From Candidatus Altiarchaeales archaeon ex4484_2 (GTDB lineage Archaea > Altiarchaeota > Altiarchaeia > IMC4 > QMZM01), in NCBI GenBank assembly GCA_002254565.1, contig NJEG01000003.1, positions 102 through 64,101 of the forward strand: 64,000 bases of DNA. Direction: 5' to 3'. Positions 7,426 through 43,518 of this stretch are shown here, in pieces (position 1 is the first letter of the stretch; every line of letters begins with the position of its first letter). A program made the translations under genes and the position numbers. The notes beneath the pieces were generated by a model. The model was not told the origin of the DNA, made no database searches, and worked only from the letters and a program-made list of their open reading frames with translations.

Positions 7426-9591
7426 ATGAAACCTAAACACCTGTTAATCACTGCACTGGCTTTAACGGTTTTTATTGCAACAACCTGCTACGCAACCTCT
7501 GTTAAGTTGGATGATATGGGGGTTGAATTCCACTCGAACGGTGATGATAGTTTGGATATAGACGTGGGGGATGGATTCCAGCTTGATATTATATTAACGC
7601 CAGATGAAAACGAAAGCGATGTGGATATCAAGGTTGATGTATACTTCGACGATATCCTGGTCTTGGATGGATACAAAGAAGATAACGTTGATCTAGAGGA
7701 GGGTGTGGATTACACCATCTCACTTGATGAAGGAGACTTCGACAGTATCTGGGATAACCTCTTTTTGGGCTATGATTGCGGAGACCATGAGATTGAGGTG
7801 AAAGTCTACGATGACGTAGATGATGAGCAGGATACAGTCGACTTAGAGATTGAAGGTGATGAATTTAATACAGTAACCATCACACCTGAAAGCCCTGGCG
7901 TGGATGAGGAAATAACCGTCTATGTGGAGGATGAGGACGGAGATGAGATGGACCGGGCCTACATAAAGATATTCCACCTTGGAGATGACGAAACATGGGA
8001 TGAAGACGACGAAGACACCTACGAGAGAACAGAATATGACGGGGAGGCGACATTCACCCTGGAAGATGAATTCGACCCGGCAATCGGAAGATACCTTTTT
8101 ATTGTAGTGGAGAGCAGCGGTGGAGGCAGCTACTGTAGAGAGACAACCGAATTAAGTCTTAAAAAAGAGCTTGTAATAGGAGAGTTACCGCAGGAAATAA
8201 GAGCAGGGGAGGTGATGGAGTTAAAGATTCTGGACCCCAACGATAATCCCGTACCATACGCTGACGTTACCGTAAGCGGTCAAGGATTTAGCGAAACAAA
8301 ATCCACTGACGGTAACGGATATGTATACTTCACAATCGAGGAAACCGGCGGTTATAGCATACTAGCCACAAAAACAGACTTTGATGACAGTCTCATTAAA
8401 CACTTCACTGTGAAGCCACGAAGTGATATGAACATTGAGGTAGGTCCGGATGATGCCCTGGTCGGTGAACAGCTGACTGTGACAGTCTCATCCAGCGGTG
8501 AGGCGGTGGAGAGTGCTGAAGTCAGGATTAAGAAACCAGACGGTATCTTTGAGTCAACCAGGAGAACCTCATCTAGCGGCGTAATCACTTATATCCCACA
8601 GGCTGTTGGAGTCTATGAAATAGAGGTAAGTAAGGAAAGCTATGAAACCGCGGTAAAGAAACATGTTGTATCCGATGAATTTCAGGTGCAGTTGGAGGGC
8701 TCGGTTTTAATAAACGAAAACATCCCCATAACAGTAAAAGACCATAAAGGTAACGCTGTGAAGGATGCCATAGTATCCATCAGGGGAGTTAAGATTGCGC
8801 AGACAGATAGCTTGGGGAAAGCCTCTTTCGTAATCGAAAGCTCAGGAACATATACCGTTGGCGTAAGCAAAGAGGGTTTCAAGGAGTTCAGCAGGGAAAT
8901 AACAGCTGAGGGAAGCCTTAAAGTGGAGTTAAGTAAATCAGAGATAGGCCTTGATGAAACAGTTACCATAACAGTGAAGGATATGAGAGACCAGGCTATT
9001 GAGGCTGAGATAACCATAGATGAACCTGATAGGGGAAGCACTATGGAAACAGCAAGCGAATTCACCTTCGCACCGGAAACAGCAGGTAAACACGAGGTTA
9101 GAGTAAACAGAAGAGGTTATAGTCCGTGTACCACGGAATTCACGGTCGAACCCTACCAGGTTAAGCTCTCATCTGAGGTATCAGGCAACTATCTCATCGT
9201 TATAGCAAAAAGAAACAATGAACCGGTAAGTAATCTTACTGTGTCAGTGACTCCCCCCAGCTCAGATGAGTTGTTCATGTACACGGACAGAAACGGAATA
9301 GCTAGAATGGATCTGGAGCAGCTGGGGGAGAAGGGGAATTTCACAATAACACTTGATGAAACAAACTACGAGTCAGATATCATAGTAAAGGAGATAACCG
9401 GGTGGGGGGGTGTTGATTTAGTGGGACTTATCATGTGGGTTCTGATAGCGTTTATTGTCATCTTGGCTGCTGCTATAGCCTTCGTGTACCTTAAGGGAAA
9501 AGATAAACTCCCTGCAAAAAAGGTGGGAAAAGTCCCGGATAGAAGAATGCCCGGTAAACGTGAGGGTAAAACCAGATTAGGTAAGGTTTAG
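7426..9591 (+). CDS. Secreted, membrane-anchored Ig-like repeat surface protein; paralog 3 of 3, with a very acidic N-terminal third.
   Basis: I prefer the start at the internal ATG 7426 (MKPKHLLITALALTVFIATTCYA, a canonical signal peptide) over the tracked 7354. KEITGWGGVD anchor motif, TM helix, and a tail ending RLGKV. Confidence 0.75.
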   Translation: MKPKHLLITALALTVFIATTCYATSVKLDDMGVEFHSNGDDSLDIDVGDGFQLDIILTPDENESDVDIKVDVYFDDILVLDGYKEDNVDLEEGVDYTISLDEGDFDSIWDNLFLGYDCGDHEIEVKVYDDVDDEQDTVDLEIEGDEFNTVTITPESPGVDEEITVYVEDEDGDEMDRAYIKIFHLGDDETWDEDDEDTYERTEYDGEATFTLEDEFDPAIGRYLFIVVESSGGGSYCRETTELSLKKELVIGELPQEIRAGEVMELKILDPNDNPVPYADVTVSGQGFSETKSTDGNGYVYFTIEETGGYSILATKTDFDDSLIKHFTVKPRSDMNIEVGPDDALVGEQLTVTVSSSGEAVESAEVRIKKPDGIFESTRRTSSSGVITYIPQAVGVYEIEVSKESYETAVKKHVVSDEFQVQLEGSVLINENIPITVKDHKGNAVKDAIVSIRGVKIAQTDSLGKASFVIESSGTYTVGVSKEGFKEFSREITAEGSLKVELSKSEIGLDETVTITVKDMRDQAIEAEITIDEPDRGSTMETASEFTFAPETAGKHEVRVNRRGYSPCTTEFTVEPYQVKLSSEVSGNYLIVIAKRNNEPVSNLTVSVTPPSSDELFMYTDRNGIARMDLEQLGEKGNFTITLDETNYESDIIVKEITGWGGVDLVGLIMWVLIAFIVILAAAIAFVYLKGKDKLPAKKVGKVPDRRMPGKREGKTRLGKV

Positions 9592-9637
9592 CTTTAATTC
9601 ATTTATTACCTCACTTTCTTATTTCTTATTTAATAGG

Positions 9638-10708
9638 ATGACTAGATTATACACTAACATTATGGGTGTTTTCGCCCTCAAAAAGGGCCGGGTTATAGAA
9701 AAAAACCTGTTCCCTGAAAACCCTATGGAAATCGCAGACCGCATTACTGTTTTAGAGAAGTCTTTCTGCAGGGAGGAGGAGGAATTAATTCACAGGTTGT
9801 ATGAAACAGGCAACATTGTTTTGGGTGTGAGAAACCCAAAAAGGTTCAGGGAACTTGACACTGGAGATATGGAGAATCTCAGGTTTGTTAAAGAACAAGA
9901 TCCTGTGGATGATATGGTCATTGTCGCACAGATTGGCTTCAAGAGGAAGAAGTTTATGAGTCTTCTGTCACAGGTTAATCTGGAGATAACAAGAAGAAGG
10001 GTTCGGGAGGTGGAGAAAGACCAGCTTATCATACAGGCTGTGAACTCAATTGATGAACTGGAGGAGTCAGCGAACAAGTTAAGCAAGAGGCTTAGGGAGT
10101 TCTACTCTTATTGTTTCCCTGAGATGGATTACCTGGTTAAGAGTGATGAAACCTACGTTTCGCTGGTTGAGGGAGGTCTTGGGAATTTAGATGAGGTTCA
10201 CCCTGATATGGCGAAGGGTATTAGAGAGTCCAGGAAAGAAACCCTTGGAGTGGATTTCTCTAAAGGGGATTATCTGGCTGTGAAAGCTCTGGCGAGATCC
10301 ATATTGAAGTTGAACGAGACGAAATCTGATATCGAGTCATACATAGGGGATTCCATGAAGGAGATGTCGCCAAACCTTAATGAGCTGGCAGGCCCTCTTC
10401 TGGGAGCCAGGTTGATTTCTTTAGCAGGGAGCCTTAAGAGGCTTGCTAAGATGCCTGCATCCACCGTGCAGGTTCTTGGTGCGGAGGATGCGTTCTTCCG
10501 TTTTTTGAAGACCGGGAAGAAGCCTCCCAAGCATGGTATAATATTCACGTTACCTGAGATAAGGGGCGCTTCCATGAAAACGAGAGGTAAGATCTCCAGG
10601 AAATTCGCAGCTAAGCTGGCTATTGCTGCGAAAGCAGACTACTTTGGTAGTGATTTCATTGGAGATCAGCTCAGGGATGATTTTTTGAAAAAGATTAAGG
10701 ATTTATGA
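9638..10708 (+). CDS. nop5: Nop56/58 (Nop5) C/D box sRNP core protein.
   Basis: Nop domain pattern: LAGPLLGARLISLAGSLKRLAKMPASTVQVLGAEDAFFR...PKHGIIF. Length and coiled-coil middle region are typical of archaeal Nop5. Confidence 0.9.
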   Translation: MTRLYTNIMGVFALKKGRVIEKNLFPENPMEIADRITVLEKSFCREEEELIHRLYETGNIVLGVRNPKRFRELDTGDMENLRFVKEQDPVDDMVIVAQIGFKRKKFMSLLSQVNLEITRRRVREVEKDQLIIQAVNSIDELEESANKLSKRLREFYSYCFPEMDYLVKSDETYVSLVEGGLGNLDEVHPDMAKGIRESRKETLGVDFSKGDYLAVKALARSILKLNETKSDIESYIGDSMKEMSPNLNELAGPLLGARLISLAGSLKRLAKMPASTVQVLGAEDAFFRFLKTGKKPPKHGIIFTLPEIRGASMKTRGKISRKFAAKLAIAAKADYFGSDFIGDQLRDDFLKKIKDL

Positions 10709-11637
10709 TGGACATGGAGGTTACCTCTGTAGGCGACATCAATGTGGATCTTGTTTGCTCTAATTTGGTGGATATGCCAGGGAGGGATTCACAGGTTCTG
10801 GTTGATGATTTGTTTATATCTTCAGGCGGTTGTGCTGCGAATTTTGCTAAGGCCGCATCCAGGCTTGGTTTAAAAACAAGGTTATTTGGGAAGACTGGAG
10901 ACGACATCTATGGAGAATTTCTTAGGGGGGAGCTTTCTGGTGTGGACCTGCATCTTGCCAAAGGCTCTAAAACAGGTGTTACTTATGCCTTAACCTTCAG
11001 GGACGGTAGCCGGTCTTTTTTAACATATCCCGGCTCTAATCGGGAGTTTGGAGCAGGGGATGTTGATTTAGAGCTGGTTGAGGGGGGATTTCTGCATGTT
11101 GCGAGCTTTTTCCTGCAGGGCTTGGGAGAGCATACTAGGGAGTTGCTTGTTCACGCCCACGATAAGGGGATGACGTGTTCCTTTGACACCGGCTGGGATC
11201 CATCAGGGTGGGGTGAGAAGGACAGGGAGCTTGTGATAGATATCCTTGAGGCTGTGGATATCTTTTTCCCTAACCTGAGGGAGGCTGAGGCCATAACAGG
11301 ATTAAGCGAGATGGAAGATGTATGTGATTCCCTGCTTGGTATGGGCCCAAAGATTATTGCCTTAAAGCTTGGTTCTCAGGGATCCTTTATTGCGACCAAG
11401 GGTGAGAGGTTTGGTGTTGAACCCTTGGAGGTTGATGTTGTGGATTCCACTGGTGCAGGGGATGTTTTTGCTGCGGGATTCATTTACGGGAGGTGTAGGG
11501 GTTACAGCTTGGAGGAATCTGGCAGGTTTGCTAACGCCGCAGCAGCCCTTTCAACGAAATTCATGGGAAGCAGCTGCTACCCCACGGAGAAGGAAGTTGC
11601 AGGGTTTATCAGGAACCGCAGTAAAAACCTCCCGTGA
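10705..11637 (+). CDS. PfkB-family carbohydrate/nucleoside kinase (ribokinase-like).
   Basis: N-terminal GDINVDL motif and C-terminal DSTGAGDVFAAGF motif. Its start overlaps the nop5 stop (ATGA). Confidence 0.85.
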   Translation: MMDMEVTSVGDINVDLVCSNLVDMPGRDSQVLVDDLFISSGGCAANFAKAASRLGLKTRLFGKTGDDIYGEFLRGELSGVDLHLAKGSKTGVTYALTFRDGSRSFLTYPGSNREFGAGDVDLELVEGGFLHVASFFLQGLGEHTRELLVHAHDKGMTCSFDTGWDPSGWGEKDRELVIDILEAVDIFFPNLREAEAITGLSEMEDVCDSLLGMGPKIIALKLGSQGSFIATKGERFGVEPLEVDVVDSTGAGDVFAAGFIYGRCRGYSLEESGRFANAAAALSTKFMGSSCYPTEKEVAGFIRNRSKNLP

Positions 11638-13366
11638 ACCAGATATCCCTCGCCTCCTCAACCTCCTGTTTGGTGACTCCATCACCTGTCTTCCATCTCG
11701 CGATAAATGCTATCAGCTCGGGCATGTTTATTACGCTATCCTGGTTGGTGTCTGCTTGGTGGTAGGGGGGTGCGTAATCGCAGATCTCTGGGGGGCAGGG
11801 GTTGCCCAAGTACTCCCAGATATAGCTTGTCAGTGTGATGTTTCCCCCATAGAGGCCTGTACCATTAGCGCAAAACCCCCTATCACCCCTCAAAGGATCC
11901 AATCCATCACTCACATTATCATAGTAATAATGGCTCATCAGCTCCTTAATCAAATCCTCATTAGGGAAAGGCCACAAGGGCTCACTGGTCACTTCATTAT
12001 ATCCCTCCTCCCCCCAGAGGGTTCCATTTACCCCGATCCTGTGAAGGATTGTAGCCCCCCTGTCCCCTCCATCAGATGCTGTACCATCCAAGTCTGAGCC
12101 GTTCTCGATTCTTGGAAGATACTTCAGGGCCGTAACCCCATTACCTGGAATACCATCTAGAGGATCTATTGCGTTGGAGTTAGCATCACAATATGAATGA
12201 GTTCCCGCTGCACTACCAGTATACTCTATATCGAGATTATATAGGGCGTTACAGTCATTTCCCACAGCATTCCATATGCCTCTATATGAATTGTATAAAA
12301 CTGAGTTCGTGATCGGGTCATTTCCTTCAAGATAAGCAAGTGGGCTTAGTGTCCCATCACCTGATACATTACCTAATGTGCAGTGATCAAAAACCGCGCC
12401 TGAACCACGTAATCGATTGCCCCACACACTATCCCAGTGAATAAAATCTATGAATGTGGTCGGGTTGTAATTGGAACCAAGGGCACCCATCATGCCTGTA
12501 TTCCCAACACTTATGCACCCTCTCACTGATGTATTCTCCAAGCTGAAGCCTTCAGCCGTATCTCTTATACCATAGCTCCTTGCGGCTGCTGTCCCTCCAG
12601 TGTAGTAGTCCTCTTGGTCGCCGTCTATGCTTATGCAGTTTTGCACTTCAGTTTCCTTACAATCATATAGCTTGAATGCTTCCTGATCAAAATAGTCAAA
12701 GTGCCTGTCATGTCTTACAACACACCTGCGGAAAATAACCTTCTCAGCTGATTTCGCTGCATAGAAATGTTTGCGTGCATCACCCCAGCTCCAGCAATCC
12801 TCAAGCAGGACATAGCTGCTGGAACCCACTGCGAAGCCATCTCCTCCATGACCTATATATGTTGTGTCATAACAGAAGCAACGAAACATTTTGATATGGT
12901 TTGCATTAATGATACTTATCAGAGTGCTGCTGCTGTTACAAACCCCTAAGCCCTCAAACTGTAGGTATGACACATCCCCTGCACCTCCTCCGCCGTGGAT
13001 TTGAAAAGGTGATCTAACTCCTTCACCATCAAAAATAACCTTTCCATCATGCTCTGCTTTAACCAGAGTGTATGAGTTGTTATTCCCACTGGGCAGCCTA
13101 TGGTCGTAATCCATAACATTTTCACTCCCAGCATAAACTCCATCCAGGATAATCAAGGTATCCCCACCAGACATCTGTGCTATAGAGTGTTGTAGCGTAT
13201 GCCAGGGGTTGTTCAAGCTCCCATCACCTGTTGCATCGCTTCCGTTGGTTGCCATATAAAAATCAGCAGCCTCCACACTCCCCCCAAAACCACCAGGAGT
13301 TATGGAAGCAATCAACAAAACCAGCACGGTATTTTTCATCTCTTTACCCATATACCCCTCCTCCAA
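11609..13366 (-). CDS. Secreted right-handed beta-helix protein (DUF1565/pectate-lyase-like fold) with a single dockerin/EF-hand-like C-terminal segment.
   Basis: Signal peptide, then FYMATNGSDATGDGSLNNPWHTLQHSIAQMSGGDTLIILDGVY. C-terminal ADTNQDSVINMPELIAFIARWKTGD. Confidence 0.7.
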   Translation of the reverse strand: MEEGYMGKEMKNTVLVLLIASITPGGFGGSVEAADFYMATNGSDATGDGSLNNPWHTLQHSIAQMSGGDTLIILDGVYAGSENVMDYDHRLPSGNNNSYTLVKAEHDGKVIFDGEGVRSPFQIHGGGGAGDVSYLQFEGLGVCNSSSTLISIINANHIKMFRCFCYDTTYIGHGGDGFAVGSSSYVLLEDCWSWGDARKHFYAAKSAEKVIFRRCVVRHDRHFDYFDQEAFKLYDCKETEVQNCISIDGDQEDYYTGGTAAARSYGIRDTAEGFSLENTSVRGCISVGNTGMMGALGSNYNPTTFIDFIHWDSVWGNRLRGSGAVFDHCTLGNVSGDGTLSPLAYLEGNDPITNSVLYNSYRGIWNAVGNDCNALYNLDIEYTGSAAGTHSYCDANSNAIDPLDGIPGNGVTALKYLPRIENGSDLDGTASDGGDRGATILHRIGVNGTLWGEEGYNEVTSEPLWPFPNEDLIKELMSHYYYDNVSDGLDPLRGDRGFCANGTGLYGGNITLTSYIWEYLGNPCPPEICDYAPPYHQADTNQDSVINMPELIAFIARWKTGDGVTKQEVEEARDIWFTGGFYCGS

Positions 13367-37565: not shown

Positions 37566-38048
37566 CTAGATTTCTTTGACCTCCCCCATGTCTGTTATGT
37601 TGAAGTATTCGCTGAATCGGGGGGTGGTGGATAAAATCAGGGTACGGCCGTGTTTTTTCGTTTCTATGAAATCCTGCTCCCTGAGTTCCTTGATGTACCT
37701 GTAGGCTCTATTCCCCCGAATCCTGACCACATCCGACTGTTTAACGGGCTGTTGGTGGGCTATCAGCGCCAGAGTCTTTAATGCCGCGGAAGAGATTTCT
37801 TTCTCAGGTGCGAGGTGGAGTATCTGTCTCTCTACGCCAGCTTCTAGTGTCATCCGGTAACCGTCTGAAACCTCCTCCACCACGATGCCGGTACCACGGC
37901 TTAAGTACTCCTCCCGCAGCTCCTCAAGATATTGTCTGATGGAACCCGGGTTGCCTGAACTACATGCTGATGCAATATCTTCTACGCTGAGAGGTCTTCC
38001 CGCTATAAACAACGCCGCCTCAACCAGCTTTTTTGTTTCATCGCTCAC
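37566..38048 (-). CDS. scpB: Segregation and condensation protein B.
   Basis: LVEAALFIAGRPLSVEDIA... followed by a second winged-helix region. No scpA is adjacent. Confidence 0.8.
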   Translation of the reverse strand: MSDETKKLVEAALFIAGRPLSVEDIASACSSGNPGSIRQYLEELREEYLSRGTGIVVEEVSDGYRMTLEAGVERQILHLAPEKEISSAALKTLALIAHQQPVKQSDVVRIRGNRAYRYIKELREQDFIETKKHGRTLILSTTPRFSEYFNITDMGEVKEI

Positions 38049-38342
38049 TCTTTCTTATCCCCCTTTTCTTCCATCTCATCTAATGCCTCCTCTACCTCAT
38101 CCAACACCTTATCCACATCAGCAGATTTCTTTCCTCTCTTCCCTGAACTATCTTCTTTCACACCAGACTCCTTTTTTTTATTCCCTGACTTCTTCTCTTT
38201 ATTCTCCGGTGGTTTAGCTGCTGGTGGCTCGGCTGCTGGTGGCTCGGTAGGTGGTTTCTCTTCTTTCTTCCCTGAACTATCTTCTTTCACACCAGACTCC
38301 TTTTTTTTATTCCCTGACTTCTTCTCTTTATTCTCCGGTGGT
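38045..38342 (-). pseudogene. Detached lysine/glutamate-rich tail of the upstream FG-GAP protein, out of frame because of a 4-bp insertion.
   Basis: Removing ccag at the repeat junction fuses ...KKEEKPPAEPP to AAKPPENKEKKSGNKKKESGVKEDSSGK... and the frame then runs to 38045. The tracked M at 38290 is only a GTG inside the repeat. Confidence 0.6.
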
Positions 38343-38394
38343 TTAGCTGCTGGCTGGTGGCTCGGCAGGTGGTTTCTCTTCTTTCTTCCCTGAC
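38138..38394 (-). repeat. Tandem repeat: 129-bp (43-codon) and 118-bp units plus a partial third unit.
   Basis: cctgaactatcttctttcacaccagactccttttttttattccctgacttcttctctttattctccggtggtttagctgctgg occurs at 38142 and 38271. ggtggtttctcttctttcttccctga occurs at 38250 and 38368. Confidence 0.9.
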
Positions 38395-39902
38395 CTGAGC
38401 TTTAGGAACACAACCACAGCCACGACCGCTAAAACCAGCAGAATCAACAAAACCCCTCCAATAATCAATAATAGCATCATATCCATTCCACCACCCTCCT
38501 CTGCTTGGGTGGTGGTTGTGGCGGGTATTGTCGATGGCACTGGTTTTAGTAAGGTTGTTGTTGTTATCTTAATGGTCGAGGTTGTTGATTTTAGGGTGGT
38601 TGTTGTGATGCTTGTTGTTGTAGTAGAACCTGCCCTGATATCCACATCAAAAACCCGCAGTTCTCCTTGGTCGTAGTTGTGGTCTAGTTGGGCCTCCTGC
38701 CAGCCGAAACCGGATGCTATCTCCAAGCTACCGTCTGAGTCGAAGTCTCCTACAGCAATCATCCGGGCGTTTATTTCTTTCTGTTTTTCCAAAATAGTGT
38801 ACATCCAACCAGTCAGGTTCTCCCCATCCGATCCGAACACCTGTATGGATTTAACGCTGCCTGTGATGATTTCTTTGATATTGTCTTTGTTCAAATCCGC
38901 TGTTTCAATACTCAGTATCGTGCTGTCTATCTCTGAATCCCATTTTTTCACGCCATCTGAGTCTACAACGTATAGTTTCGGGTAGGAGCTGAAGATTATC
39001 TCTTTCCTGCCGTCGTTGTCTAAATCCTTCGCCCTGACTGATGAGACCAGCCGCTCTGTTTTATAGTTCCACATCTCGTTTCCTTGGTTGTTGAGTACGA
39101 TGAGTTTATTGTCGTATGCTGCTACCAGAATCTCTTTCCCTCCGTTGTTGTCTATGTCGCTGATGCTTATGCTGTAGTCGTTTGCCTGATAGACTCCCTT
39201 ATCTATTTCATAACTCCATTCTGTTTTGCCTTTTGAATTCAGGACATATAGTGTTGCCTTCTTCCTCTGATCGTTTGTTAATGCTATTATCTCCATCTCA
39301 GGATCCGAGTCAATGTCTACTGCTTTCACGTAGTATGCTGGGTTGTCTAATTCTGCTGTCCACTTGATGCCAAGTTTCAGGTTCCATGAGGATTCAATCT
39401 GTTCCAACAAATATATTTTTCCATGTTTACCAGCAAGTAATATCTCGTTTACGCCGTCTCCGTCGAAGTCTCCCACATCCATAGAGGATATCGAGTCCAG
39501 AGCTTCCTTGGGTTTATATTTCACGGTGGTATCAAGCCCCAGAACATAAAGATATCTGTCCCTATCCAGGGATGTTACTAGCACATCTTTCTCCCCGTCT
39601 CGGTCGAAGTCCATGACCTGAAGGTCTGTTATCTCGTCTTCTATCCCAATGAACTGCCAGGTAGCTGTCCATTGATCCTCACAGTCTTTTAGTTTTAGAT
39701 TGTATACTACGCCGTTGCTTGAGCCGGCGAAGATTTCAGGTATGCCATCATTATTTAAATCAGCTGCCTTCACCAGTTTAATGTGGGGGCCGTTTGTTTC
39801 ATATACGCATGCTGTTTTTATTCCCTCATCTACCGCGGATACGCTGTAGACTAGGAAGGCTATAATCACCCAGTACATTATTTTTGTTTTCATCTTTTTC
39901 AA
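38343..39902 (-). CDS. Secreted FG-GAP/VCBS-repeat (integrin-alpha-like beta-propeller) protein with a Thr-rich stalk and a TM anchor. Its C-terminal tail is truncated.
   Basis: Signal peptide. Eight Dx[DN]xDGxxE[IV] repeats (DLNNDGIPEIF, DFDRDGEKDVLV, DFDGDGVNEILL, and others). TTTTSITTTTLKSTTSTIKITTTT stalk and a TM helix. Confidence 0.8.
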   Translation of the reverse strand: MKKMKTKIMYWVIIAFLVYSVSAVDEGIKTACVYETNGPHIKLVKAADLNNDGIPEIFAGSSNGVVYNLKLKDCEDQWTATWQFIGIEDEITDLQVMDFDRDGEKDVLVTSLDRDRYLYVLGLDTTVKYKPKEALDSISSMDVGDFDGDGVNEILLAGKHGKIYLLEQIESSWNLKLGIKWTAELDNPAYYVKAVDIDSDPEMEIIALTNDQRKKATLYVLNSKGKTEWSYEIDKGVYQANDYSISISDIDNNGGKEILVAAYDNKLIVLNNQGNEMWNYKTERLVSSVRAKDLDNDGRKEIIFSSYPKLYVVDSDGVKKWDSEIDSTILSIETADLNKDNIKEIITGSVKSIQVFGSDGENLTGWMYTILEKQKEINARMIAVGDFDSDGSLEIASGFGWQEAQLDHNYDQGELRVFDVDIRAGSTTTTSITTTTLKSTTSTIKITTTTLLKPVPSTIPATTTTQAEEGGGMDMMLLLIIGGVLLILLVLAVVAVVVFLKLRSGKKEEKPPAEPPASS

Positions 39903-39923
39903 TCACATGATTCTGTTAAATAA

Positions 39924-40562
39924 TTATTTGTTCCTGTGCATAAAACATGATAGTAGAAGCAGTTTCTCGAAAGCTATTTTTTTCTCTGCTGTTATTTCAA
40001 CACCCAACCCCAGCTTCCTCAATTCCTCCACCACCTCACCTGGATTGTTTAGTGATGAAACCACCAGCTGCATTCCACCCCTCGGCTCCAGGTAGGCCTT
40101 GAATTCGCGGATGAATTCATCTATCACCTCTCGTCCTCCCACCCCTCCACACCACGCCTTTTCTAGCATGTTTTTTCCCGTAACCGGCAGGTAGGGTGGG
40201 TTGAATAGTATGAGATTGAATTTCTCTTTTTTCTTTATGTTCCTGAATAGATTGCTTTCCCTGAATTCTATGTTCCCTGCCTTGTTTAATCCGGCGTTCT
40301 CTTCCGCCAGCTTCAATGCCAGGGGGTTCACGTCCACTGCCAGCACACAGGATGCCGTATCTGAGGCAATTATTGCCTGCAGGCCTGTTCCGGTGCCCAT
40401 GTCCAGGACAGTGTCTCCTTCCTCCACAAGCTGGTTGTCTGCCAAAAGAAGTGAGTCCTCTGCGGGCTTGTACACCTGCTCGCTTGTCTTTATTTTGTGG
40501 TCATGGTAGTAGTGCATATTTATCCATGGAAGACAACATATATTTATTGTAGGATGAAACAT
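39924..40562 (-). CDS. HemK/Mtq2-like SAM-dependent methyltransferase.
   Basis: VLDMGTGTGLQAI SAM motif and NPPY motif (LILFNPPYLP). The true start may be the internal M at 40517. Confidence 0.8.
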   Translation of the reverse strand: MFHPTINICCLPWINMHYYHDHKIKTSEQVYKPAEDSLLLADNQLVEEGDTVLDMGTGTGLQAIIASDTASCVLAVDVNPLALKLAEENAGLNKAGNIEFRESNLFRNIKKKEKFNLILFNPPYLPVTGKNMLEKAWCGGVGGREVIDEFIREFKAYLEPRGGMQLVVSSLNNPGEVVEELRKLGLGVEITAEKKIAFEKLLLLSCFMHRNK

Positions 40563-41069
40563 ACTGTTGCATTATCTGGCAGCTTCCAAGGAAGTAGTGA
40601 GGCCTTGTTCCGGAATCTCCCGAAGGAGGGGGTTATTCATTCCTCCCTTATTGGGCGGGAGGTTGTTTTCAGGGTGAGAAGTGATAGACTGGATGAAATC
40701 AAAAGCCACCTCTCCAGTATTGGTGTGGAGAACATCAGCATCCTTGAGTGGCGTGAGTCGGGTATGACCTTATCCGGCTCCGGGCTGGGTTCTGATGATG
40801 CTGGTGTGGTGGAGGTTTCCCTGATTCCAACAGCCTCAGGAGAGGGTTTCAGGCAGCTGGCTGTTTTAAGCGAACTAAGCTTTGAGAGATCTTTTCTCCT
40901 GAAGGTTAAGGGCAGGGTTGAGGATGTGTTGGAGGATGCTGGTTTAACTGACGTGCTCTATACGGTAAGAATCAAGAGCGACTCCCAGTTGGAGGAGATA
41001 CTGGATGCTGCCTCAATCGCCACCCTGAATGCGGTCTTTGACGCAAGCGGTGTAATCGCCATAGACTAA
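40554..41069 (+). CDS. Hypothetical protein.
   Basis: I chose the internal ATG at 40554 (MKHTVAL...) to avoid overlap with the divergent methyltransferase gene. No motif recognised. Confidence 0.45.
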   Translation: MKHTVALSGSFQGSSEALFRNLPKEGVIHSSLIGREVVFRVRSDRLDEIKSHLSSIGVENISILEWRESGMTLSGSGLGSDDAGVVEVSLIPTASGEGFRQLAVLSELSFERSFLLKVKGRVEDVLEDAGLTDVLYTVRIKSDSQLEEILDAASIATLNAVFDASGVIAID

Positions 41070-41073
41070 GGCA

Positions 41074-41102
41074 GGAACAAACAGTAGTACGTCTTTATTC
41101 CA
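41074..41102. repeat. Left copy of an imperfect ~30-bp direct repeat flanking the 41.1-42.4 kb cassette.
   Basis: GGAACAAACAGTAGTACGTCTTTATTCCA versus GGAATAAACAAGTAGTTATGTCTTTATTCCA at 42394: 27 matches, 2 mismatches, 2 single-base gaps. Confidence 0.75.
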
Positions 41103-41208
41103 TTTCTCTGATGAATTATTACAAGCCCGTAGCTATAGGGTTATCTAGGGGGTATAGGAGCCTACACAAAATAAACCATTATCTTACTAGAGGTTGGGGT
41201 GTATGAGG

Positions 41209-42318
41209 TTATCTTAGATTAATGAATACCAGTATCTCCCCGAAGCCTTCTTTATTGTATGGCTGGAGAGCTAATCCCACGGTCGGTGATTCTCCTGTTG
41301 CCTTCATACCCACCCCTGGTGTGGAGGATAGCATAATTCGGTCGCCGACTGCGATGGGTCCGTTCTCTGGGGAGACCTTCACCAGCACTCTGCCGGCTAG
41401 GGATACGAGAACCCTTGTTTCGTTGCTGAATTCTTCATCTGCGAACCCCCCTAAAAGGATTCCTGGATTGGCTGAGACCACCCCGATGAGCGGTAAATTT
41501 TTTTGGGCTTTCTGGACGAACACGGGATTCTTCAAATCTAAAGCAACCAGGTCACCTGGTTCTAGGGTGGTGTCTTTTGTCGGATAGTTTTCTGCCAGAT
41601 CCATTTCAGTAACTGCGGTATGTTCAGCGTATATGCTGCCTTGGGTGCGGACTGCATTATCGCAGTTGTCGCCTCCGTCGTCTACGCACAAAACCCCGTC
41701 ATCTATTATCAGGGAGGTTGGGGGTACCTTCCCTGGAGGGACCTCATCTGTGGGGTTGCCCATGTAGATGTTCCCATCACCCCTGATAATCATCCTCGTT
41801 GTTAAGGGGTTGCCTACGCCTGCACCTGTGTTCTCTCTGGTGCGGAATTCAAGTCTTATGGGGCAGTCATCGATTACTGAACACATGCTCCCGTCTGCTA
41901 CAGCCCTGATCTGCGCACCAATCTGGAAATTACCGGGTGAGGGCTGACAGTAGGAATAGAACCCGATCGCTCCAATCGGGTCGTTTGCGGCTGGATTGAA
42001 CGGGTGGCCGCTAGGGGAGTCAGGGCTGTTGCGGGTGCCGGTTGCTCAATAAATGTTAAGGTCTGCTGTCTCGCTTCCGTAGGAGTAGAGGTTGATGTCG
42101 CCGGATCCGTCTTCGCTGTCAATCCGCAATCCACCTGCTAGGAGATGAATTAGTGCTAATGGGTTTGTCTCTCAGATGCCTACCCTATCGCCTGAGGGGA
42201 AAACATAGTCTCCCTGCTGGAAGGTTCCGGGAGATATCTCTTCCGCTGGATGACCCTGTATCGGAGGGCTCTGCGAGAAGACATAGACTGCAAGAGAACA
42301 CAAAACCAGAACCACCAT
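41209..42318 (-). pseudogene. Secreted tail-fiber-like protein gene. It keeps a single reading frame that is interrupted only by two in-frame TGA codons (42172-42174 and 42046-42048).
   Basis: My hand translation of the minus frame from ATG 42318 (MVVLVLCSLAVYVFSQS...) to 41209 gives one continuous frame: ...DRVGI-TGA-ETNPLALIHLLAGGLRID...LNIY-TGA-ATGTRNSP...MCSVIDD.... The tracked 42172-42393 and 41209-41886 ORFs share this frame. Confidence 0.65.
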
Positions 42319-42393
42319 AATACCGTAAGCATGCCTCCTCCCGATATTAAAGTTTACATTGAATTCTATTATCCCCACCTCATTAGATAACAA

Positions 42394-42424
42394 GGAATAA
42401 ACAAGTAGTTATGTCTTTATTCCA
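42394..42424. repeat. Right copy of the imperfect ~30-bp direct repeat; it overlaps the fae-hps stop codon.
   Basis: See the left copy. The TAA stop of fae-hps (42417-42419 on the minus strand) lies inside this repeat. Confidence 0.75.
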
Positions 42425-43518
42425 CGTGCACACGCTTTAGGTCTATGTCTCCGCCTATGAAATCCAGGAACTGCCTTACTGAGCCTTCAACGTCCCTGGA
42501 CTGTGTGATACTCCGCCCTACTATGATTATATCAGCGCCCTCCTTTACCGCCTCCGGCGCCGTCTGGGGGTCTATCCCTCCTGCGACAGCGACCATCAAT
42601 TTCGGGTTCTTCTTCTTCAGCTCCTTTATGAGATGCCATCTCTGCTCCTGCCTTCCTTCCGCGTCAACGCACCGGTGGAGTATCATTATATCAGGCAGGT
42701 CCTTCAGCTCCCCTAGTAGGGCAACAGGGTCTTCCACGTTCATGGTGTCTACTATTGCGTAGATTCCAAGCCTGTGGGCTTCGTAGATGAACTTGTCCAG
42801 CACCTCAGGGGCGGCCAGACCTGAGGCCGAAATCGCTTTTGGTGACCTCTCTGATTTCTTTTATCACCTGAACCCCGTATCTCTTGATTAGTGGAGTGCC
42901 TGCCTCCAGTATTATTTTATCGCTTTTGGGGACCTGAGCTATGACTTTCTTCACCCTCTCTATGTCCGGGACATCTAATGCTATCTGGAGGTATGGTGTA
43001 TTCCATTCCGGTAGTCTTGGTACCTTAAAGCCCATTATTGGATGCACCGCCCGATCTTTATCGTATCTTATTTTTTCTGCGTTGGGGTAGTCTGTTAAGG
43101 CTCTTTTGAGTGCCAGCTTTGTTGCCCCGTAGTTATATTGGTATATCTTCCTATAATCTATTGCCTCAGGGTGTATGAATACGGAGACTATAACAACCCA
43201 TTCATCTATTTTAGCCAGGGGTATGACTTCTTCTTCTACTGAGTCCGCTATTGCTTTGGCAACGGCTGCCTGTGCGGGCCCGAATATTTTCTCCACATCC
43301 TCCATGCCCTGGACTGTTACTTTAGGCACCACGAGGGTGTATGGTTTCGCCGGCAGGTTTGGTCTAATAACTGAGAGCAAGGGTGTATGTCCCTTGGATA
43401 GTTGCGTGAGGCCGTTAGCGAATGCTTCGCCGACGACACCCTCTTTTTCACCGATCATCAAATCAACGTGCGCTACTTCATTACCTGAGCCGACAAGTGC
43501 TTCACCAATCTTGAACAT
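42417..43518 (-). pseudogene. fae-hps: Bifunctional formaldehyde-activating enzyme / 3-hexulose-6-phosphate synthase (Fae-Hps), split by a frameshift near 42805-42845.
   Basis: Fae part: [23 protein letters not shown].... The Hps part starts at YLQIALDV...ILEAGTPLI. The frame changes after EIREVT, and Hps resumes in another frame: [30 protein letters not shown]...VAVAGGI...IIIVGRSI. Confidence 0.75.

What the first reader, a model, noticed from the sequence alone, without database searches (positions are those of the whole stretch)
41074..42424. A 1.3-kb single-gene cassette bounded by imperfect 30-bp direct repeats between two convergent genes
GGAACAAACAGTAGTACGTCTTTATTCCA (41074-41102) lies directly after the stop of the 40554-41069 gene. 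It is repeated as GGAATAAACAAGTAGTTATGTCTTTATTCCA (42394-42424): 27 matches, 2 mismatches, 2 one-base gaps. The second copy contains the stop codon of fae-hps.

Everything between the copies is one gene, the TGA-interrupted secreted protein. The simplest reading is that the two convergent genes once shared a single copy of this 3' sequence, and that the cassette inserted there and duplicated its target or att-like site. No integrase or transposase accompanies it.
Basis: seen in the sequence. Interest (0 to 1): 0.6.

Follow-up and report, generated by a model that had tools for sequence, protein, structure and literature searches.

The report
Gene insertion flanked by duplicated gene-end junction
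In this uncultivated Altiarchaeota genome, a now-dead gene for a secreted, phage-tail-fibre-like protein sits between two convergent genes and is bracketed by two copies of the short hairpin junction that joins those genes in relatives lacking the insert; this is an ordinary insertion footprint, but the same junction has been duplicated or filled repeatedly in related genera.

Summary
The two repeats sit at the stated coordinates with 27 matches, 2 mismatches and 2 gaps. They occur nowhere else in the 1.4-Mb genome. Four other assemblies carry them base for base.

Each copy is a hairpin that starts in the fae-hps stop codon. The similarity extends to about 41 nt (41062-41102 and 42384-42424). 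That unit holds the last codons and stop of the 171-aa gene (p171), the hairpin, and the stop and last codon of fae-hps. So the repeat is a duplicated copy of the whole convergent-gene junction.

Empty sites exist in the same genus. One contig has a single hairpin between the two genes. Twelve contigs have only a 9-nt spacer. Sister genera are also empty.

The 'cassette' is not one evolutionary unit. Its 5' UTR and 58-codon leader are orthologous to a gene at the same site in two congeners. Those congeners lack the left repeat and have an unrelated gene body. The 1130 nt at 41066-42195, including the left repeat, were found only in this lineage.

The gene is a pseudogene: ATG changed to ATA, plus two TGA stops. 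No recombinase lies nearby.

Other genera show similar 40-61-nt duplications at this junction, some around other inserted genes.

The parts
40554..41069 (+). p171: conserved 171-aa Altiarchaeota gene of unknown function, the left convergent neighbour
   Evidence: ORF. No Pfam, NCBIfam or PHROG hit. Found in 35 of 41 related genomes.
41062..41102 (.). Left copy of the duplicated junction: the last codons and stop of p171, then 4 nt, then hairpin H1 (41074-41102), ending in TTATTCCA, which is a relic of the fae-hps stop and Glu codon
   Evidence: Absent from G004, G001 and G003.
41103..41208 (-). 106-nt 3' untranslated spacer of the inserted gene, containing a T-rich run
41066..42195 (.). Segment with no counterpart in congeners: left repeat, 3' spacer, and codons about 59-386 of the inserted gene
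   Evidence: blastn against G004, G003 and G001. BLASTP finds similarity only in residues 1-86. GC is 50.7% and the tetranucleotide distance is at the 70th percentile, so it is not foreign-looking.
41209..42369 (-). Inserted gene, a pseudogene for a secreted tail-fibre-like protein. It has an N-terminal TM/signal helix, a GHPAEEISPGTF and VGIG motif, and a C-terminal domain like the phi29 gp12 autochaperone. Lesions: start codon position reads ATA (42367-42369), and in-frame TGA at 42172-42174 and 42046-42048
42196..42369 (-). Leader (58 codons) that is orthologous to the gene at the same site in G004 and G003, and shared with a genus-specific paralog family
   Evidence: 87.9% nucleotide identity to G004, against 87-93% for the flanks. 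Paralogs.
42384..42424 (.). Right copy of the duplicated junction: relic of the p171 end (TAGATAA), hairpin H2 (42394-42424), and the real fae-hps stop codon at 42417-42419
   Evidence: Orthologous hairpin present in G004, G003 and L059.
42417..43518 (-). fae-hps, the right convergent neighbour. In this assembly only, 80 nt are missing between 42827 and 42828, which breaks the Hps domain
   Evidence: The gene is intact (393 aa) in four other assemblies and in G004 and G003.

Best explanation
The 30-nt 'repeat' is the stem-loop that follows fae-hps. Its 5' arm contains the fae-hps stop codon. In the ancestor of this Altiarchaeota genus, the stem-loop was essentially the whole spacer between the convergent genes p171 and fae-hps.

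DNA was inserted at this junction, and about 41 nt of the junction were duplicated. The duplicated unit runs from the last codons and stop of p171, through the hairpin, to the stop and last codon of fae-hps. As a result each convergent gene kept an intact 3' end and hairpin. The inserted gene lies between the two copies in the fae-hps orientation, about 45 nt downstream of the fae-hps stop.

The insert encodes a member of a genus-specific family of secreted, tail-fibre-like proteins with a conserved leader and swappable C-terminal parts.

The locus has since behaved as a replacement and indel hot spot:
- The leader is vertically inherited.
- The gene body, together with the left repeat copy, differs between lineages.
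- Some lineages have lost the insert, leaving either one hairpin or only a short spacer.
- In this genome the gene has decayed (lost start codon, two nonsense codons).

Shown: the anatomy, the empty sites, the orthology breakpoints and the pseudogene lesions.

Inferred: that duplication and insertion were one event, and the enzymology. A staggered break or slippage duplication followed by illegitimate insertion is favoured over a dedicated recombinase.

Unresolved: whether the left copy dates from the first insertion or from the later replacement of the gene body.
For: - The repeat is unique in the genome and significant. It is reproduced in four other assemblies.
- The hairpin is kept in the minus-sense RNA in all five versions. 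There are 8 pairs. The C/T difference gives a G-U pair only in the minus sense, and there is one compensatory change in G003.
- The repeat contains relics of both stop codons. The empty-site sequence AGTAGGTTTAGTTGTTATTCCACGTGCAC aligns to copy 2 AGTAG--TTATGTCTTTATTCCACGTGCAC. TAGACTAA of p171 aligns to TAGA-TAA before copy 2, and G004 has ATAGATAA there.
- Empty sites: L059 has a single hairpin 5 nt after the p171 stop. Twelve contigs have TAG-gtttagttg-TTA. Genera g2, g3, g4 and g8 are also empty.
- Trees of both flanks place G003 (occupied) outside a clade that mixes occupied genomes (G000, G004) with an empty one (L054). By pairwise flank identity, the empty L059 is about as distant from G000 as G004 and L054 are; it was not included in the trees.
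- Breakpoints against G004 lie at 41065 and 42196, and leader identity equals flank identity.
- The same kind of junction duplication appears in other genera: G015 has a 50-nt tandem x2, G006 has a 58-nt x2 around 47 nt, and G011 has 61 nt x at least 4. L080 has the last 17 codons of p171 duplicated around an inserted 180-aa gene, and L082 has a 40-nt relic of the fae-hps end beside two inserted genes.
- The only tyrosine recombinase gene in the genome is on another contig.
Against: - G004, G001 and G003 carry the homologous-leader gene without a recognisable left copy. Only a weak TTATATTCC remains in G004.
- The left copy lies inside the segment found only in this lineage. It may therefore have arrived with a later replacement rather than with the original insertion.
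- The 9-nt empty site lacks the hairpin's left arm. That arm could therefore be insert-derived: TTGTTTATT also occurs in the 5' UTR of paralogs.
- All comparison genomes are MAGs or metagenome contigs. The small tandem duplications in G015, G006 and G011 were not verified in independent assemblies or reads.
- No mechanism is demonstrated.
Confidence: 0.6

Rival explanations
1. The hairpin is a recombination (att-like) site. Single-gene cassettes are excised and integrated there by a recombinase acting in trans, for example the genome's lone tyrosine recombinase (XerA-like). This would resemble integron cassettes, IMEX elements or pdif modules. Under this view the two copies are attL and attR, and copy 1 with its GGAACAAAC arm could be the remnant of an older, deleted cassette.
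For: - Presence and absence are interleaved on the tree.
- A clean empty site with one hairpin exists.
- The site is an imperfect palindrome of 28-31 nt.
- The left copy contains the arm that elsewhere borders the insert's 5' end.
- No recombinase is needed in cis. One tyrosine recombinase exists on C28.
- Repeated occupancy of this interval by different genes is seen across the family.
Against: - No array of two or more cassettes was found.
- The hairpin occurs nowhere else in five genomes of the genus.
- The 12 contigs of the 9-nt empty-site lineage lack it, so it is not an essential dif-like site.
- The orthology breakpoint against G004 lies inside the gene at about codon 58 (nt 42196), not at the hairpin.
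- Paralogs of the family have no flanking repeats.
- The integron attC core motifs and length are not met, by inspection and from memory of the consensus.
- The duplications in other genera have different sequences and lengths.
Confidence: 0.15
2. The left copy is not an insertion footprint. It would be a secondary local copy (gene conversion or short ectopic duplication) of the fae-hps terminator hairpin, retained because it terminates or stabilises the transcripts of the new gene body and of p171.
For: - Both copies fold best in the minus sense, which is the sense of fae-hps and of the inserted gene.
- Copy 1 lies 106 nt downstream of the inserted gene's stop.
- Congeners with the other gene body do without it.
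Against: - The similarity continues past the hairpin into the p171 stop-codon region on the left of both copies. A copied terminator would not need that.
- L059 shows the hairpin at the same distance from the p171 stop as copy 1, in an empty site.
- Analogous duplications of pure coding 3' ends in L080, G015 and G006 cannot be terminator reuse.
Confidence: 0.2
3. Chance similarity of two A/T-rich intergenic stretches, or an assembly artefact.
For: - The repeat is short and imperfect.
- This assembly has other lesions, namely the 80-nt gap in fae-hps.
Against: - The alignment score is far above the null.
- The pattern is unique in the genome.
- The sequence is identical in four other assemblies made with different assemblers.
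- Orthologous hairpins occur in G004, G003 and L059.
Confidence: 0.02

Closest known systems
Integrated elements or genomic islets flanked by att-type direct repeats that rebuild the 3' end of the target gene (for example archaeal SSV- or pNOB8-type integrations into tRNA genes; att cores of about 40-60 bp, from memory)
   Same: - Direct repeats of about 41 nt bracket the insert.
- The repeats contain the 3' ends of the target genes, so these stay intact.
- An empty site with one copy exists in relatives.
- The same target is used repeatedly in related lineages.
   Different: - There is no integrase in or near the insert.
- The insert is a single 1.2-kb gene.
- The target is the joint 3' ends of two convergent protein genes, not a tRNA gene.
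- The repeats are 87% identical with indels.
- Part of the 'element' (the leader) is orthologous to the gene of genomes that lack one repeat.
Replacement flexible genomic islands: the same locus holds different surface-protein versions in different strains (concept from pangenome studies of marine bacteria and archaea, from memory)
   Same: - The position is the same in all genomes.
- The 5' part is conserved while the exposed C-terminal parts are unrelated (G000 versus G004 and G003).
- Occupied and empty states are interleaved among close relatives.
   Different: - This locus is a single gene rather than a multi-gene glycosylation or surface cluster.
- Here a target duplication marks the borders.
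Integron gene cassettes and CALINs (Ghaly et al. 2022, PMC9668308)
   Same: - A promoterless-looking single gene is bounded by imperfect hairpin-forming repeats.
- There is no recombinase next to it.
- The two sites are less than 4 kb apart.
   Different: - The repeats are 29-31 nt, whereas attC sites are roughly 55-140 nt (from memory).
- The R''/R' cores (RYYYAAC / GTTRRRY) are absent.
- No IntI is present.
- The repeats derive from the local gene ends.
Phage phi29 gp12 (pre-neck appendage/tailspike) C-terminal autochaperone domain
   Same: - The confident C-terminal 130 residues of the inserted protein match PDB 3gqh_A (Foldseek E 5.8e-5, TM 0.58).
- They also give weak PHROG hits to pre-neck appendage proteins.
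   Different: - Sequence identity is 19%.
- The N-terminal part is a signal or TM helix plus a genus-specific leader rather than a virion-attachment domain.
- No viral contig carries the family.

Membership tests
Integron cassette / CALIN | At least two attC sites less than 4 kb apart | tested here: inconclusive
   There are two hairpin repeats 1.3 kb apart, but they are not shown to be attC. The definition is taken from PMC9668308.
Integron cassette / CALIN | attC architecture: R''-L''...L'-R' with RYYYAAC / GTTRRRY cores, length about 55-140 nt | tested here: not met
   By inspection of 41074-41102 and 42394-42424, the repeats are 29-31 nt and have no GTTRRRY/RYYYAAC pair on either strand. 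The consensus was recalled from memory. IntegronFinder's attC model was not available.
Integron cassette / CALIN | IntI integrase in the genome or next to the array | tested here: inconclusive
   One PF00589 gene lies on C28, not on C47. It was not tested for the IntI-specific insertion. The genome is 83% complete.
Integrase-borne integrative element | Direct att repeats that duplicate the 3' end of the target gene | tested here: met
   41062-41102 and 42384-42424 contain the stop regions of both p171 and fae-hps.
Integrase-borne integrative element | Integrase gene inside the element | tested here: not met
   The only long frame between the repeats is the tail-fibre-like pseudogene. It has no Pfam hit.
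Transposon / IS with target-site duplication | Transposase and terminal inverted repeats, TSD of 2-15 bp | tested here: not met
   There is no transposase ORF. No terminal inverted repeats are listed other than the hairpin arms themselves. The duplication is about 41 nt.
Xer/dif-exploiting element (IMEX, pdif module) | Flanking site is the chromosomal dif (28-bp palindrome-like, conserved in relatives) or a close mimic | tested here: not met
   The hairpin is absent from the junction in the 12 contigs of the 9-nt empty-site lineage. It is found nowhere else in five genomes of the genus. The true dif of this group is unknown.
Tail fibre / tailspike proteins with a C-terminal autochaperone (phi29 gp12 type) | C-terminal domain fold | tested here: met
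   AF2 pLDDT exceeds 90 for residues about 255-386. Best PDB hit is 3gqh_A with E 5.8e-5 and TM 0.58. phrog_4775 gives E 0.0047.
Tail fibre / tailspike proteins with a C-terminal autochaperone (phi29 gp12 type) | Trimeric beta-helical or fibrous shaft and autocleavage site | tested here: inconclusive
   The middle 150 residues are modelled at pLDDT below 50. Cleavage residues were not examined.
Alternative genetic code (TGA recoded) | TGA not used as a stop genome-wide; in-frame TGA frequent in conserved genes | tested here: not met
   TGA ends 364 of 1008 open frames of at least 200 codons. There is no TGA excess among same-frame neighbouring frames. The homologous start codon is also lost.

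The most novel reading that the evidence does not exclude
Altiarchaeota of this family might possess an integrase-independent, or trans-recombinase-dependent, way of inserting and exchanging single genes at the 3' ends of genes. It would duplicate 40-60 nt of the target so that both neighbours survive. The p171/fae-hps junction would be a preferred landing site, and the conserved hairpin would act as the recombination substrate. This would be a cassette system unrelated to integrons.
Probability: 0.12. Interest if true: 0.75.

Novelty: new variant of a known kind. Interest (0 to 1): 0.4.

Why it matters
It gives a fully documented insertion polymorphism in an uncultivated archaeal phylum. Three states are seen among near relatives: occupied with both repeats, occupied with one repeat, and empty with one copy or none. 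The borders are known to the base.

It shows how a gene can be wedged between two tightly packed convergent genes without damaging either one: the whole junction, including both stop codons and the hairpin, is duplicated. The same junction has been duplicated or filled independently in several genera, which points to a recombination-prone site or a shared mechanism worth testing.

Practically, it also shows two things. The fae-hps 'lesion' next to the cassette is peculiar to this assembly. The TGA codons are pseudogene lesions, not recoding.

Tried and rejected
- Genome-wide terminator motif: rejected. The motif has only two copies in G000 and one in G004.
- Foreign composition: rejected. GC equals that of the neighbouring genes, and the tetranucleotide distance is at the 70th percentile.
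- TGA recoding: rejected. The start codon is also lost.
- Family-wide mobility signature: the paralogs C18, C8 and C28 have no flanking direct repeats above the null.
- Viral origin of the leader family: no hit in IMG/VR.
- Integron attC, IS or transposon, and dif: see the membership tests.
- Genome-wide self-BLAST for similar short-range repeats gave 57 pairs. Most of the 11 pairs inspected were paralogous domains or tandem paralogs, for example C9 and C23. Only C24 (dapA 3' end) looked like the same phenomenon.
- Pfam and NCBIfam, and a PDB sequence search, gave nothing useful for the inserted protein. Pfam, NCBIfam and PHROGs gave nothing for p171.
- A literature search on Altiarchaeota MAGs gave nothing on this locus.
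Full report
**Observation.** Copy 1 (41074-41102) starts 4 nt after the TAA of the 171-aa gene at 40554-41069, here called p171. Copy 2 (42394-42424) contains the fae-hps stop codon (42417-42419, minus strand).

They differ by 2 substitutions and 2 one-base gaps. A degenerate pattern covering both copies hits exactly these two places in the whole 1.395-Mb, 53-contig genome, and a blastn-short search finds nothing longer than 16 nt elsewhere. A gapped local alignment extends the similarity leftwards to 41062-41102 versus 42384-42424, with score 44. The null for window pairs at the same spacing is 15.1 +/- 3.5, and 2 of 3000 pairs reach 44. The 99th percentile for random upstream/downstream flank pairs is 33.

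Each copy is itself a hairpin, with arms GGAAYAAA and TTTATTCC. It folds better in the minus sense (-7.4 and -8.8 kcal/mol, z -2.7 and -3.0) than in the plus sense.

Four other assemblies of the same population are 100% identical over 39177-42827, including both copies. These are ENA ERZ2433807, two DOMB18-1 scaffolds and a Logan assembly of SRR6301444.

**The gene between the copies.** One minus-strand frame of 395 codons runs from 42393 to 41209, with in-frame TGA at 42172-42174 and 42046-42048.

Paralogs in the same genome (C18, C8) and the genes at the same site in two congeners begin MEFN.. or MQFK... The homologous codon here is ATA (42367-42369), so the start codon is lost as well. The first TGA falls on the Gly of the conserved VGIG motif.

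TGA is an ordinary stop in this genome. It ends 364 of 1008 long frames, and there is no TGA-specific excess of in-frame interruptions. The same lesions are present in the four other assemblies. I read the gene as a recently decayed pseudogene.

The protein has these features:
- An N-terminal hydrophobic helix (residues 11-32 of the model).
- The leader GHPAEEISPGTF...VGIG.
- A poorly modelled middle part.
- A confident C-terminal domain (pLDDT above 90, residues about 255-386). Its best structural match is the C-terminal autochaperone fragment of phage phi29 gp12 (3gqh_A, E 5.8e-5, TM 0.58), followed by phage capsid decoration and head-fibre base proteins.

Sequence relatives of this domain (45-48% identity) are in candidate-phyla-radiation and other uncultivated bacteria. 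PHROG hits are weak: phrog_6427, and pre-neck appendage phrog_4775. No viral contig carries the leader family. Among species-representative genomes it is essentially confined to this genus.

The organism is a Candidatus Altiarchaeota MAG, according to the names attached to the congeners' proteins and contigs.

**The site in relatives.** p171 is conserved in 35 of 41 related genomes.

Sister genera of the same family have p171 directly convergent on an intact fae-hps. The spacers are about 1 nt in G005, 1 nt in G015, about 25 nt in G007 and L058, and about 85 nt in G018. That is the empty site at family level.

Within the genus there are three states:
- **Occupied, G004/G003 type.** G004 has an intact 266-aa gene at the site. 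G003 (and contig L056) has the same gene broken by frameshifts. G001's contig ends 12 nt after the p171 stop with G004-like sequence.
- **Empty, short spacer.** Twelve metagenome or MAG contigs (eleven distinct assembly records, including one NCBI MAG), all of one lineage, read ...ATA GAG TAG gtttagttg TTA TTC CAC... Only 9 nt separate the two stop codons.
- **Empty, one hairpin.** Contig L059 reads GAC TAA tttgc GATATAAACAC gtcctgcgagaaaaactc CTTTATTCCA catgcac. This is a single hairpin with arms homologous to those of the repeat, placed 5 nt after the p171 stop exactly like copy 1.

Trees of the left flank (mtase plus p171) and the right flank (fae-hps plus pgk) both put G003 outside a well-supported but internally unresolved clade of G000, G004, (G001) and L054. 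By pairwise identity of the same flanks, L059 is about as distant from G000 as G004 and L054 are; it was not included in the trees. Occupied and empty states are therefore interleaved. Either the insert was lost more than once, or it moved between lineages.

**What the repeat is made of.** The hairpin occurs once in G004 and, in diverged form, once in G003. In both it sits between the inserted gene and fae-hps and overlaps the fae-hps stop, like copy 2.

Across copy 1, copy 2, G004, G003 and L059, an 8-pair stem is kept. The C/T difference in the left arm gives G-U pairs only in the minus-sense RNA, and G003 has one compensatory pair. So the hairpin belongs to the 3' end of the fae-hps transcript.

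The 9-nt empty site aligns with the right two thirds of copy 2: AGTAGGTTTA-GTTGTTATTCCACGTGCAC against AGTAG--TTATGTCTTTATTCCACGTGCAC. This includes the last codon and stop of p171 (GAG TAG).

To the left of the hairpin, copy 2 is preceded by TTAGATAAcaa (ATAGATAAta in G004). That matches the true p171 end, ATAGACTAAggca, which precedes copy 1.

The duplicated unit is thus the complete ancestral junction: the last codons and stop of p171, a few nt, the hairpin, and the stop and last codon of fae-hps. This is what a target duplication looks like, and it explains why both neighbours have intact ends.

**Why the cassette is not a single unit.** blastn of G000 against G004 shows 89-93% identity up to 41065, 2 nt before the p171 stop codon (41067-41069). 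Identity resumes at 42196, codon 58 of the inserted gene counted from the ATA start position.

The leader coding part (42196-42369) is 87.9% identical. The flanking genes are 87-93% identical. The leader, the 5' UTR and copy 2 are therefore orthologous in G000 and G004.

In contrast, 41066-42195 has no counterpart in any congener. This segment holds copy 1, the 106-nt 3' spacer and about 330 codons. Its proteins are unrelated beyond residue 86.

G004's gene ends 5 nt from the p171 stop. Only a weak TTATATTCC there resembles the repeat's end.

Because G003, the outgroup, shares the G004-type body, the G000-type body with copy 1 is most simply a later replacement. The alternative is that G000 keeps the original state and the others lost copy 1. 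This cannot be excluded, because recombination between lineages would scramble the tree signal.

The segment is not compositionally foreign. Its GC is 50.7%, against 49.5-51.5% for p171, fae-hps and pgk, and its tetranucleotide distance is at the 70th percentile.

**A recurrent phenomenon at this junction.** Other genera of the family show duplications of the same junction with different sequences:
- G015 has a 50-nt tandem duplication spanning the last 6 codons of p171 and the last 9 of fae-hps (94% identity).
- G006 has two perfect 58-nt copies of the fae-hps end with 47 nt between them.
- G011 has at least four 61-nt spacer units.
- Contigs L080 and L081 hold a 180-aa gene and a GyrI-like gene between p171 and fae-hps. 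The last 17 codons of p171, stop included, are duplicated on either side of the 180-aa gene (50 nt, 90% identity).
- L082 holds two other genes, plus a 40-nt relic of the fae-hps end next to the real one.

Elsewhere in G000, the last 36 or so codons of a dapA-like gene recur as a relic beyond an inserted Arch_ATPase-like gene (C24). These MAG-level observations were not verified in reads.

**Mechanism.** No integrase or transposase lies in or near the insert. The only PF00589 gene is on contig C28. No terminal inverted repeats were found. The repeats do not fit integron attC sites. The hairpin is missing from the junction of the 9-nt empty-site lineage and from the rest of five genomes of the genus, so it is not a dif-like essential site. 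Paralogs of the gene family are not flanked by repeats.

I therefore favour a duplication of the junction, by staggered breakage or replication slippage, as seen 'naked' in G015. DNA would then have been inserted between the copies. Survivorship bias would contribute: between genes only 1-30 nt apart, only insertions that duplicate both ends leave both genes functional. Later events would be replacement of the gene body by recombination anchored in the conserved leader, and loss by recombination between the copies. This part is inference.

A trans-acting site-specific recombinase using the hairpin remains possible; I put it at about 0.15.

**Side result.** The fae-hps frameshift and deletion next to the cassette is an 80-nt gap between 42827 and 42828. 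It is found only in this assembly. The four other assemblies and the congeners have an intact 393-aa gene.

**Verdict.** Insertion between formerly adjacent convergent genes with duplication of the target, and the predicted empty site, are all found. However, the insert is older than this genome, its 5' fifth and its 3' four fifths have different histories, and the gene is dead. It is a new variant of a known kind of feature, an insertion flanked by target-derived direct repeats at a replacement hot spot. Interest is moderate, raised somewhat by the recurrence of junction duplications across genera.

Noticed in passing
window 42827-42828: This assembly lacks 80 nt of fae-hps that four other assemblies of the same population contain. 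The 'broken' Hps domain is therefore specific to this assembly (a collapsed gap or a rare variant), not a property of the organism.
   Followed up: yes
window 38001-38400: The tail of the FG-GAP surface-protein gene differs by indels and rearranged repeat units among the four other assemblies (blastn pieces). This repeat region is either assembly-unstable or variable in the population.
   Followed up: no
G000:C24:9461-11850: A dapA-like gene (9461-10336, +) is followed by a convergent Arch_ATPase-like gene (10392-11540, -). After that comes a relic of the last 36 or so codons of dapA, stop included (about 11742-11850). This is the same 'insert plus duplicated 3' end' signature as the finding.
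   Followed up: partly
L080:2069-2786; L082:3250-3329: In other genera, the p171/fae-hps interval holds other genes: a 180-aa gene plus a GyrI-like gene in L080, and 205-aa plus 274-aa genes in L082. These come with a 50-nt duplicate of the p171 C-terminal codons or a 40-nt relic of the fae-hps end.
   Followed up: partly
L024:2001-2100; L023:1303-1465; L033:530-1001: Sister-genus genomes with an 'empty' junction carry small duplications of it: G015 has a 50-nt tandem x2, G006 has 58 nt x2 with 47 nt between, and G011 has 61 nt x at least 4 with an N gap.
   Followed up: partly
G000:C18:42478-43077 and G000:C8:1328-1858: Two paralogs of the leader family share nearly identical 5' UTRs and the first 30 or so codons, but have different C-terminal parts (210-aa and 187-aa open frames). 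The family looks built for C-terminal swapping.
   Followed up: partly
L059:2188-2520: The contig with the single-hairpin empty site has an extra 110-aa hydrophobic-protein gene between fae-hps and pgk that G000 and G004 lack.
   Followed up: no
L061:4217-4844; L066:7582-8209: The empty-site lineage carries a PIN plus RHH toxin-antitoxin pair between the 166-aa gene and the DUF3160 gene. It is absent from G000 at the corresponding place (compare L029).
   Followed up: no
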